Shown piece by piece: positions 37,407-37,559 of a DNA stretch of 42,584 nucleotides; position 1 is the stretch's first letter, and every line of letters starts with the position of its first letter. A program made the translations under genes and the position numbers. This stretch comes from a virus (Duplodnaviria; Heunggongvirae; Uroviricota; Caudoviricetes): the IMG/VR virus record IMGVR_UViG_2563366870_000004, positions 1-42,584 of that record. One strand, 5' to 3'. The notes below the pieces were generated by a model, which had not been told where the DNA came from, made no database searches, and saw nothing but the letters and a program-made list of their open reading frames with translations.

Positions 37407-37559
37407 ATGCAGTGGAAAATCATCAACGGTTGGTACTGCGTTACTGCATGCGGATTCATGAGCTGGAAGTTCCGCACATTACAGGAAGGCATTAAGTGGG
37501 CTTTCGTCAGCAAAGAAGCTCGCGATGTGGCCAACGATAACGAGATATGGGAGGGCTGA
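37407..37559 (+). CDS. Small Trp/Cys-rich peptide (50 aa), first gene of the rightward early operon
   Basis: Not in ORF track (below size cut-off); good GAGGT ribosome-binding site; stop overlaps next start (TGATAATG). Confidence 0.4.
   Translation: MQWKIINGWYCVTACGFMSWKFRTLQEGIKWAFVSKEARDVANDNEIWEG

What the first reader, a model, noticed from the sequence alone, without database searches (positions are those of the whole stretch)
37407..37559. Unannotated 50-aa Trp/Cys-rich peptide as first gene after the early-operon operators
The ORF falls below the ORF-track size cut-off but has a strong ribosome-binding site and is translationally coupled to the next gene. Its position (first gene of the recombination operon, under repressor control) is where lambdoid phages encode small host-targeting peptides such as Kil-type division inhibitors.
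Basis: inference. Interest (0 to 1): 0.45.

Follow-up and report, generated by a model that had tools for sequence, protein, structure and literature searches.

The report
Conserved small early phage protein
The 50-codon ORF is a real, strongly conserved gene of epsilon15/phiV10-like prophages, already listed in databases as a hypothetical protein, and it is the first gene of the repressor-controlled recombination operon; its function is unknown and nothing ties it to the known Kil peptides.

Summary
The ORF at 37407-37559 (+) is as described: ATG start, GAGGT Shine-Dalgarno 8 nt upstream, and a stop 2 nt before the next ATG, whose Shine-Dalgarno lies inside the ORF's 3' end. It follows a TTGACA-17-AATTAT promoter flanked by two TTACC-N5-GGTAA operators.

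It is not new. It is identical to phiV10 gp39, 78% identical to epsilon15 gp37, and a full-length member of PHROG 898 (unknown function). It occurs in all 36 phage records that carry the SPC32H-type repressor, and its region in about 10% of complete E. coli genomes.

It is coding: synonymous sites are near saturation while residues 1-25 are almost invariant (pN/pS 0.10).

AlphaFold with 22 sequences gives a three-strand-plus-helix mini-domain (pLDDT 74) with no specific structural relative.

Both cysteines are lost in distant relatives, so a zinc site and a lipoprotein are excluded. There is no similarity to lambda Kil, lambda CIII, P22 Kil, P22 C3 or P22 Arf, and none to any solved chain, SPC32H Ant included.

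An operator lies 27-34 nt before the ATG in 16 of 17 loci.

My best guess, by inference only, is a soluble early protein that binds a conserved host protein. Kil-like division inhibition is possible but untested.

The parts
36669..37253 (+). Repressor gene (Rep, two HTH domains), same strand, immediately upstream
   Evidence: phmmer hit to SPC32H repressor 5d50_A, E 3.5e-42; Pfam HTH_3; annotated as repressor in the related phages
37274..37293 (+). Intrinsic terminator of the repressor transcript
   Evidence: 8-bp GC-rich stem followed by a T run; annotated as a terminator in phiV10
37311..37325 (.). Operator O1, TTACCTTACGGGTAA, upstream of the -35
   Evidence: Palindromic motif TTACC-N5-GGTAA: 14 hits (12 perfect) against 0.8 expected in the window; the same motif is annotated as a repressor binding site in epsilon15
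37345..37373 (+). Early-left promoter TTGACA-17-AATTAT
   Evidence: 10 of 12 consensus match; conserved in 17 loci
37373..37387 (.). Operator O2, TTACCTCAACGGTAA; abuts the -10 and covers the predicted transcript start; begins 34 nt before the ATG
   Evidence: an exact operator begins 27-34 nt before the peptide ATG in 16 of 17 loci
37394..37398 (+). Shine-Dalgarno GAGGT, 8-nt spacer to the ATG
   Evidence: sequence; a GAGG-type Shine-Dalgarno at the same place in most of the 17 loci, with weaker purine-rich variants in L092, L094 and L101
37407..37559 (+). 50-aa protein gene (phiV10 gp39 / epsilon15 gp37 family, PHROG 898); residues 1-36 form the conserved core, and residues 37-50 form a variable tail that overlaps the next gene's translation initiation region
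37550..37564 (+). Coupling junction: GGAGGG Shine-Dalgarno inside the peptide ORF, TGA stop, 2 nt, then the ATG of the next gene
   Evidence: sequence; stop and next start are 0-5 nt apart or overlap (GTGA/ATGA) in all loci
37562..37861 (+). 99-aa protein (epsilon15 gp36 family, PHROG 856, unknown function; possibly Gam-like)
   Evidence: weak hhalign match to the C-terminal half of Gam (probability 36%, E 4e-4); a true Gam occupies this slot in L095
37858..38757 (+). YqaJ/RecE-like exonuclease
   Evidence: Pfam YqaJ 5.5e-23 and PHROG 434
38767..39789 (+). RecT single-strand annealing protein
   Evidence: annotated as RecT in epsilon15 and E. coli; 93% identical to the epsilon15 protein

Best explanation
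Shown: the ORF is a true protein-coding gene under strong purifying selection. It is a member of the epsilon15 gp37 / phiV10 gp39 family (PHROG 898), which is restricted to epsilon15-like (Uetakevirus-type) phages and prophages of Enterobacterales. It is the first conserved cistron of the operon that also encodes a Gam-like protein, an exonuclease, RecT and an AlpA-type excision regulator. An exact repressor operator lies 27-34 nt before its ATG in 16 of 17 loci, and its stop abuts the next gene's start.

Strongly inferred: the gene is silent in the lysogen under the SPC32H-type repressor. It is among the first products made after infection or induction, and its translation is coupled to that of the next gene.

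Predicted with moderate confidence: residues 1-36 fold into a soluble mini-domain, a three-stranded antiparallel sheet (with an invariant Asn-Gly turn) packed against a helix. The conserved Trp, Tyr and Phe residues would form its core. The tail is unconstrained.

Inferred, and this is the step I commit to: a 50-residue domain with no catalytic potential most likely works by binding a partner one-to-one. Its core is conserved about as well as the enzymes next to it and much better than the adjacent repressor, across phages of at least eight host genera. That pattern points to a conserved host protein as the partner, which would make this an early host-takeover or inhibitor protein. Division inhibition in the manner of Kil is one candidate target, at roughly 15-20%. 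Inhibition of a host nuclease or defence protein is another.
For: - Coding: 4-fold sites vary freely (Gly8 and Ala14 each use 4 codons) while the residues stay invariant. pN/pS is 0.10 for codons 1-25 and 0.18 for codons 1-36. Frame +1 is open in 12 of 12 loci.
- Family: PHROG 898 at E 2e-38, matched 1-50 of 50. The sequence is identical to phiV10 gp39. The peptide is found in 36 phage records, the same set that carries Rep. The region is present in 561 of 5426 complete E. coli genomes.
- Synteny: Rep, operators, peptide..., exonuclease, RecT, AlpA in all loci, including relatives of 36-42% identity.
- Operator at -27 to -34 in 16 of 17 loci, whatever the distance to the promoter (-60 to -452).
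- Fold: AlphaFold with 22 sequences gives pLDDT 74, strands 2-6, 9-14 and 18-22, and a helix 25-49.
- Relative conservation, window against epsilon15: Rep 43%, peptide core 83% (residues 1-25: 92%), gp36 52%, exonuclease 91%, RecT 93%.
- The downstream partner varies (gp36-like, Gam, a 330-348-aa protein, or the exonuclease directly) while the peptide core stays constant. This argues against a dedicated phage partner.
- No RNA family and no unusual RNA structure explain the conservation.
Against: - There is no experimental datum of any kind, and no paper mentions the protein. The ZX5 study of a phage with the identical peptide ignores it.
- High conservation fits equally well with a conserved phage partner such as RecT, AlpA or the operator DNA, all of which always co-occur with the peptide.
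- The structural model has only moderate confidence. A shallower alignment gave a different, helical, low-confidence model.
Confidence: 0.4

Rival explanations
1. Accessory factor of the phage recombination module. It would be comparable in role, not in sequence, to P22 Arf or to a cofactor of Gam, the exonuclease or RecT, and would bind one of the recombination proteins or their DNA substrate.
For: The peptide always sits at the head of an exonuclease-RecT operon, even in the most divergent relatives and even where gp36 and Gam are absent. The mosaic boundary with epsilon15 falls exactly at its ATG, so it travels with the recombination genes and not with the immunity region (match starts at query 807 = window 37406). 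It is translationally coupled to the next gene. P22 has a 47-aa Arf directly upstream of erf.
Against: The exonuclease type changes (YqaJ, DUF3799, a 550-aa form, and a RecE-RecT fusion in phiV10) and RecT varies from 293 to 372 aa while the peptide core is unchanged. There is no similarity to Arf.
Confidence: 0.2
2. Small nucleic-acid-binding regulator. The three-stranded sheet plus helix would be used as in AP2 or integrase arm-binding domains, acting on transcription or excision (for example antitermination, or modulation of Rep-controlled sites).
Against: Net charge is about zero and basic residues are few, with Lys4 and Arg23 not conserved. Unrelated folds give equal or better structural scores (MmoD, RF1 domain, PH domains). 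There is no Pfam hit even at E 1. A Cro-like HTH protein and an AlpA protein already fill the obvious regulatory roles.
Confidence: 0.15
3. Modulator of the lysis-lysogeny decision of the lambda CIII type. It would be a small early-left product that protects a lysogeny factor by inhibiting a host protease such as FtsH.
For: Size and operon position are similar to cIII, which lies just upstream of kil and gam. There is a superficial N-terminal resemblance: MQYAIAGW in CIII against MQWKIINGW here.
Against: hhalign and hmmsearch find no relationship to lambda CIII or P22 C3. CIII activity resides in an amphipathic helix, whereas the conserved part here is the predicted sheet. No CII-like partner was identified.
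Confidence: 0.07
4. The product has no function of its own. The ORF would serve only as an upstream reading frame that delivers ribosomes to the next gene. A related alternative is that it is an exported or membrane peptide or a lipoprotein.
For: The coupling architecture is universal, and the last 6-10 codons are read in two different frames over the same DNA, so the tail is shaped by the next gene's initiation region. V-T-A-C15 fits a lipobox pattern in the window sequence.
Against: Residues 1-36 are under strong protein-level selection, and that conservation covers the would-be signal peptide. Cys15 is Ser, Ala or absent in distant members, and the only N-terminal Lys is Gln in several. The invariant Asn-Gly turn and the polar N-termini in distant members argue against a membrane helix. 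The helical model had pLDDT 55.
Confidence: 0.04

Closest known systems
phiV10 gp39 (YP_512294.1) / epsilon15 gp37 (NP_848245.1) / SPC32H_040 / WP_001198620.1; PHROG 898
   Same: Same family: 100% identical to phiV10 gp39 and 78% to epsilon15 gp37. Same place between the repressor gene and the recombination genes.
   Different: Nothing differs. The family has no assigned function in any record.
Lambda Kil (47 aa, FtsZ-ring inhibitor) and P22 Kil
   Same: Small product of a repressor-controlled early-left operon, placed directly upstream of the gam/recombination genes and overlapping or abutting its neighbour.
   Different: No sequence similarity. Here the gene is the first cistron after the operators, whereas in lambda N and several other genes precede kil. 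The predicted fold is mostly sheet. Activity is untested.
Lambda CIII / P22 C3 (FtsH inhibitors)
   Same: Size and operon neighbourhood.
   Different: No detectable homology. The conserved region is not an amphipathic helix.
P22 Arf (47 aa, Erf cofactor)
   Same: Very small ORF fused by overlap to the head of a recombinase gene cluster.
   Different: No similarity. Arf is highly acidic, and the recombinase family differs (Erf against RecT).
AP2 / integrase arm-binding type three-strand-plus-helix domains; HicB N-terminal and UPF0339 (YegP) domains
   Same: Same secondary-structure order and size.

Membership tests
epsilon15 gp37 / phiV10 gp39 family (PHROG 898) | Full-length match to the family profile | tested here: met
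   E 1.9e-38, residues 1-50 on profile positions 1-50 of 50; identical to phiV10 gp39
epsilon15 gp37 / phiV10 gp39 family (PHROG 898) | Location between the SPC32H-type repressor gene and the exonuclease/RecT genes, same strand | tested here: met
   the 36 phage records with Rep and the 36 with the peptide are the same set
Lambda Kil / P22 Kil | Sequence homology to Kil | tested here: not met
   hhalign probability 0.2%; hmmsearch scores negative
Lambda Kil / P22 Kil | Position upstream of gam/recombination genes in the repressor-controlled leftward operon | tested here: met
   L095: peptide, Gam (PF06064), exonuclease, RecT. In the window the next gene is only weakly Gam-like.
Lambda Kil / P22 Kil | Blocks FtsZ-ring formation; filamentation and killing on expression | not testable with these tools
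   needs expression and microscopy
Lambda CIII / P22 C3 | Sequence homology, including the central amphipathic helix | tested here: not met
   hhalign probability 0.5%; hmmsearch scores negative
P22 Arf | Sequence homology | tested here: not met
SPC32H Ant (antirepressor, PDB 5D50) | Sequence match to the solved Ant chain | tested here: not met
   The family profile finds no PDB chain below E 1, while the window Rep finds 5d50_A. That 5D50 holds Ant chains rests on the epsilon15 record's note naming 5D50 as the SPC32H repressor structure, the Rep-Ant description in PMC9638917 and my own recollection.
Bacterial lipoprotein | Conserved lipobox Cys after a basic, hydrophobic signal peptide | tested here: not met
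   Cys15 is replaced by Ser, Ala or a gap in P0031, P0033, P0034, P0039 and P0041; Lys4 is Gln in L005, L006 and L008
Zinc-ribbon or CxxxC metal site | Conserved Cys/His ligands | tested here: not met
   Cys11 becomes Leu, Tyr, Phe, His or Ile, and Cys15 becomes Ser or Ala, in distant members
AP2 / integrase-N DNA-binding domain | Three-stranded sheet plus C-terminal helix | tested here: met
   AlphaFold topology
AP2 / integrase-N DNA-binding domain | Specific structural or profile similarity, and a basic DNA-contact face | tested here: inconclusive

The most novel reading that the evidence does not exclude
The family is a previously unrecognised, structurally distinct class of phage early host-takeover protein: a three-strand-plus-helix mini-domain that inactivates a conserved enterobacterial protein such as a divisome, nuclease or defence component. 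It would be kept under unusually tight repressor control by a dedicated operator next to its ribosome-binding site, and its region is carried by about one in ten complete E. coli genomes.
Probability: 0.3. Interest if true: 0.5.

Novelty: already known. Interest (0 to 1): 0.25.

Why it matters
Epsilon15/phiV10-like prophages are common: the region is present in 561 of 5426 complete E. coli genomes, and relatives occur in Salmonella, Klebsiella, Enterobacter and Citrobacter. This is the best-conserved gene of unknown function in their early region, and likely among the first made on induction. If it targets a host protein it would be a new small inhibitor and a possible tool or antibacterial lead. 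If it assists RecT/exonuclease it could matter for recombineering systems built from these modules. As things stand it is a catalogued hypothetical protein, and the present work adds only proof that it is coding, a fold prediction and a list of excluded identities.

Tried and rejected
- Pfam and NCBIfam: no hit for the peptide even at E 1.
- Exhaustive HMM search of 1.84 billion representatives: 19 hits. All but one are short (32-69 aa); the exception, P0030, is a repetitive 1929-aa protein and is spurious.
- PDB sequence search with the family profile: nothing.
- The first AlphaFold run with 15 close sequences gave a low-confidence two-helix model (pLDDT 55). I discarded it in favour of the 22-sequence run (pLDDT 74).
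- Comparisons with lambda Kil, lambda CIII, P22 Kil, P22 C3, P22 Arf and P22 orf45: negative.
- Lipoprotein, zinc-site and membrane-helix readings: rejected on conservation.
- RNA-element explanations: all Rfam hits lie far below the gathering score, and the fold z-score is -1.0.
- The antisense ORF 37373..37591 (the one annotated in phage Tyrion) is open in most close relatives but broken in L004, L092 and L095, and the codon-position pattern favours the + frame.
- Literature: no paper mentions the protein, its accession or its sequence. The two SPC32H papers are not held.
- A LexA-box-like site at 28258 and the ORF after it gave nothing.

Full report
**What the window is**

The region around the finding is 96-98% identical to phiV10-like E. 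coli podophages and prophages. From the finding onward it is 81% identical to Salmonella phage epsilon15 (genus Uetakevirus). The 651-bp stretch that includes the ORF is present in 561 of 5426 complete E. coli genomes.

**The observation**

The ORF 37407..37559 (+) encodes 50 residues, MQWKIINGWYCVTACGFMSWKFRTLQEGIKWAFVSKEARDVANDNEIWEG. Its surroundings, in order along the + strand, are:

- the gene for a two-HTH repressor (36669-37253), homologous to the structurally solved SPC32H Rep (5d50_A, E 3.5e-42);
- that gene's terminator (37274-37293);
- an operator at 37311-37325;
- a promoter, TTGACA (37345) - 17 nt - AATTAT (37373), a 10 of 12 match;
- an operator at 37373-37387;
- GAGGT at 37394-37398, 8 nt before the ATG;
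- the ORF, whose TGA (37557-37559) is followed after 2 nt by the ATG of the next gene (37562). That gene's GGAGGG lies inside the ORF.

The operator motif TTACC-N5-GGTAA gives 14 hits (12 of them perfect) in the window against 0.8 expected. It is the motif annotated as repressor-binding in epsilon15. The description is therefore accurate.

The identical ORF is PhiV10p39 and WP_001198620.1, and its homologues are epsilon15 gp37 and SPC32H_040. All are called 'hypothetical protein'.

**Is it more than a chance ORF?**

Length alone says nothing, because the same stretch holds dozens of ORFs of 25-100 codons. The evidence is evolutionary.

- Across ten loci from E. coli, Salmonella, Enterobacter, Klebsiella, Citrobacter, Kluyvera, Pseudocitrobacter, Scandinavium and Erwinia, four-fold sites vary freely (Gly8 and Ala14 each use all four codons) while residues 1-25 are almost invariant.
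- The pooled synonymous difference is about 0.5 per site, against 0.05 non-synonymous for codons 1-25. This gives pN/pS of 0.10 for codons 1-25 and 0.18 for codons 1-36.
- Frame +1 is open in all 12 loci examined. The antisense ORF that phage Tyrion's record annotates instead is broken in three of them.
- The protein matches PHROG 898 over its full length (E 2e-38).
- No Rfam family reaches threshold, and no unusual RNA structure (z = -1.0) offers another reason for the conservation.

**Extent of the family**

A word-indexed search found 29 clusters, and an exhaustive profile search of 1.84 billion representatives found 19. All but one of the 19 are short (32-69 aa), and every named source organism is an Enterobacterales member. 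The exception, a repetitive 1929-aa protein, is spurious.

In the phage collection the peptide occurs in 36 records. These are exactly the 36 records that carry a Rep homologue, and nearly all are epsilon15-like genomes of about 38-44 kb.

The distant members (36-57% identity) show what is really conserved:

- Trp3, Gly8, Tyr10, Thr13, Gly16, Ser19, Phe22, Trp31, Phe33 and Ala38 are kept;
- both cysteines are lost.

The loss of the cysteines removes a zinc site. It also removes the lipobox reading that V-T-A-C15 might suggest.

**Anatomy of the protein**

With 15 close sequences AlphaFold gave a poor helical model (pLDDT 55). With 22 sequences including the distant ones it gave strands at 2-6, 9-14 and 18-22 and a helix at 25-49, with pLDDT 74. 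This agrees with the invariant Asn7-Gly8 and the near-invariant Gly16 as turns.

Both faces of the sheet carry hydrophobic residues. One face holds Trp3, Ile5, Tyr10, Val12, Ala14, Met18, Trp20 and Phe22, and by inference packs on the helix. The other face holds Ile6, Trp9 and Cys11 together with the conserved Thr13, Ser19 and Lys21, which by inference looks like a binding surface.

The last 6-10 codons are not constrained as protein. The same DNA, GATATGGGGGTGAGCAAGTGA, is read as GIWG-stop in epsilon15-type genes and as DMGVSK-stop in Klebsiella-type genes. This stretch is the Shine-Dalgarno and GTG start of the next gene.

Structure searches gave only generic matches:

- Foldseek against PDB and against viral models found nothing below E 0.3.

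**Context**

In 17 loci the order is Rep, then promoter with operators, then peptide, then exonuclease, RecT and AlpA. What lies directly after the peptide varies:

- a gp36-like 99-aa protein (PHROG 856);
- a true lambda-type Gam (PF06064, L095);
- an inserted protein of 330-348 aa;
- the exonuclease itself (L101).

The exonuclease type and the RecT length also vary. The gp36 family aligns weakly with the C-terminal half of Gam (hhalign probability 36%, E 4e-4).

Every locus keeps the peptide's stop within 5 nt of, or overlapping, the next start.

Every locus but one has an exact operator beginning 27-34 nt before the peptide's ATG, wherever the promoter is (60 to 452 nt upstream). This holds even where another small gene and a hairpin lie between promoter and peptide.

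Mosaic boundaries bracket the peptide-gp36 pair. Homology with epsilon15 begins at the peptide's ATG, and homology with phiV10-type genomes ends at the end of gp36.

Against epsilon15 the identities are Rep 43%, peptide core 83% (first 25 residues: 92%), gp36 52%, exonuclease 91% and RecT 93%.

**Mechanism**

Three things are shown: it is a real protein, it is the first cistron of the repressor-controlled recombination/excision operon, and the coupling architecture is conserved.

One thing is predicted: a soluble sheet-plus-helix mini-domain.

The rest is inference. A domain this small and without catalytic residues most likely acts by binding. Its conservation across many host genera matches that of the neighbouring enzymes and far exceeds that of the neighbouring repressor. 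Its immediate phage neighbours are interchangeable. I therefore favour a conserved host protein as the target, that is, an early host-takeover or inhibitor protein (confidence about 0.4).

Kil-like division inhibition is one candidate, but it rests on position only. In L095 the peptide precedes Gam as kil does in lambda.

The rivals are:

- a recombination accessory factor (0.2), because the peptide always heads an exonuclease-RecT operon;
- a small nucleic-acid-binding regulator using an AP2-like sheet (0.15);
- a CIII-like modulator (0.07);
- a mere coupling ORF or an exported peptide (0.04), contradicted by the selection pattern.

**Comparison with known families**

It is a member of the epsilon15 gp37 / phiV10 gp39 family (PHROG 898).

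It is not a member of the lambda Kil, P22 Kil, lambda CIII, P22 C3 or P22 Arf families. hhalign probabilities are below 1% and hmmsearch scores are negative. It does not match any solved chain, which by inference rules out the SPC32H antirepressor Ant. The family profile finds no solved chain, while Rep finds 5D50.

No paper in the searchable library mentions the protein, its accession or its sequence. A study of phage ZX5, which has the identical peptide, examined only the repressor, antirepressor and integrase.

**Verdict**

Interest is modest: this is a good candidate for a simple expression and pull-down experiment, not a surprise.

Noticed in passing
window 5872, 8886, 8979, 10017, 27728, 30940, 34230, 34292, 36599 (plus 36551 with one mismatch), 37311, 37373: The repressor operator TTACC-N5-GGTAA occurs at 12 perfect sites (0.8 expected). 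By comparison with the ORF list all but possibly one (30940, inside a listed TTG-start ORF) lie in gaps between ORFs. Two pairs are exactly 62 bp apart (34230/34292 and 37311/37373). The repressor therefore seems to control many promoters across the genome, which would fit the tetrameric, two-site binding reported for SPC32H Rep.
   Followed up: partly
L002 2335-2488; L008 3836-3990; also L004, L007, L009, L092, L094, L095, L101, L102: Epsilon15-type loci carry a longer leader than the window: promoter with operator, then a short hairpin (terminator-like in Klebsiella L008 3940-3953), then a third operator right before the peptide's Shine-Dalgarno. In the window/phiV10 type this leader is absent and the rep terminator sits upstream of the promoter. 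The role of a promoter-distal operator fixed at -27 to -34 from the ATG (roadblock or loop anchor) is unexplained.
   Followed up: partly
L098 (Enterobacter phage Tyrion NC_031077) 2905-3117 minus strand: This record annotates an antisense 70-aa ORF (gp39) over the peptide gene and misses the conserved + strand gene. This is probably an annotation error.
   Followed up: yes
window 37520-37564 and the same region of L002, L007-L010: The C-terminal tails of the peptide in different phages are translations of the same DNA in two different frames. That DNA is the Shine-Dalgarno and start of the next gene.
   Followed up: yes
window 37562-37861: The 99-aa gp36-like protein (PHROG 856, no Pfam hit) shows a weak profile match to the C-terminal half of lambda-type Gam. 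A true Gam replaces it in one relative, so it may be a divergent RecBCD inhibitor.
   Followed up: partly
L102 2711-2977; L094 3713-3925: Some relatives carry extra small genes between the repressor gene and the peptide: a homologue of the DNA polymerase III theta subunit directly after rep (L102), and ORFs of 60-70 aa (L102, L094).
   Followed up: no
window 28258-28273 and 28341-28763: A CTGT-N8-ACAG (LexA-box-like) site lies upstream of a 140-aa ORF that has no Pfam or PDB match. The antirepressor of this phage was not located.
   Followed up: partly
L001 (phiV10) 4259-6019 compared with window 37858-39789: phiV10-type genomes replace the separate YqaJ exonuclease and RecT genes of the window with a single RecE-RecT fusion gene. 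The switch point lies exactly at the end of gp36.
   Followed up: no
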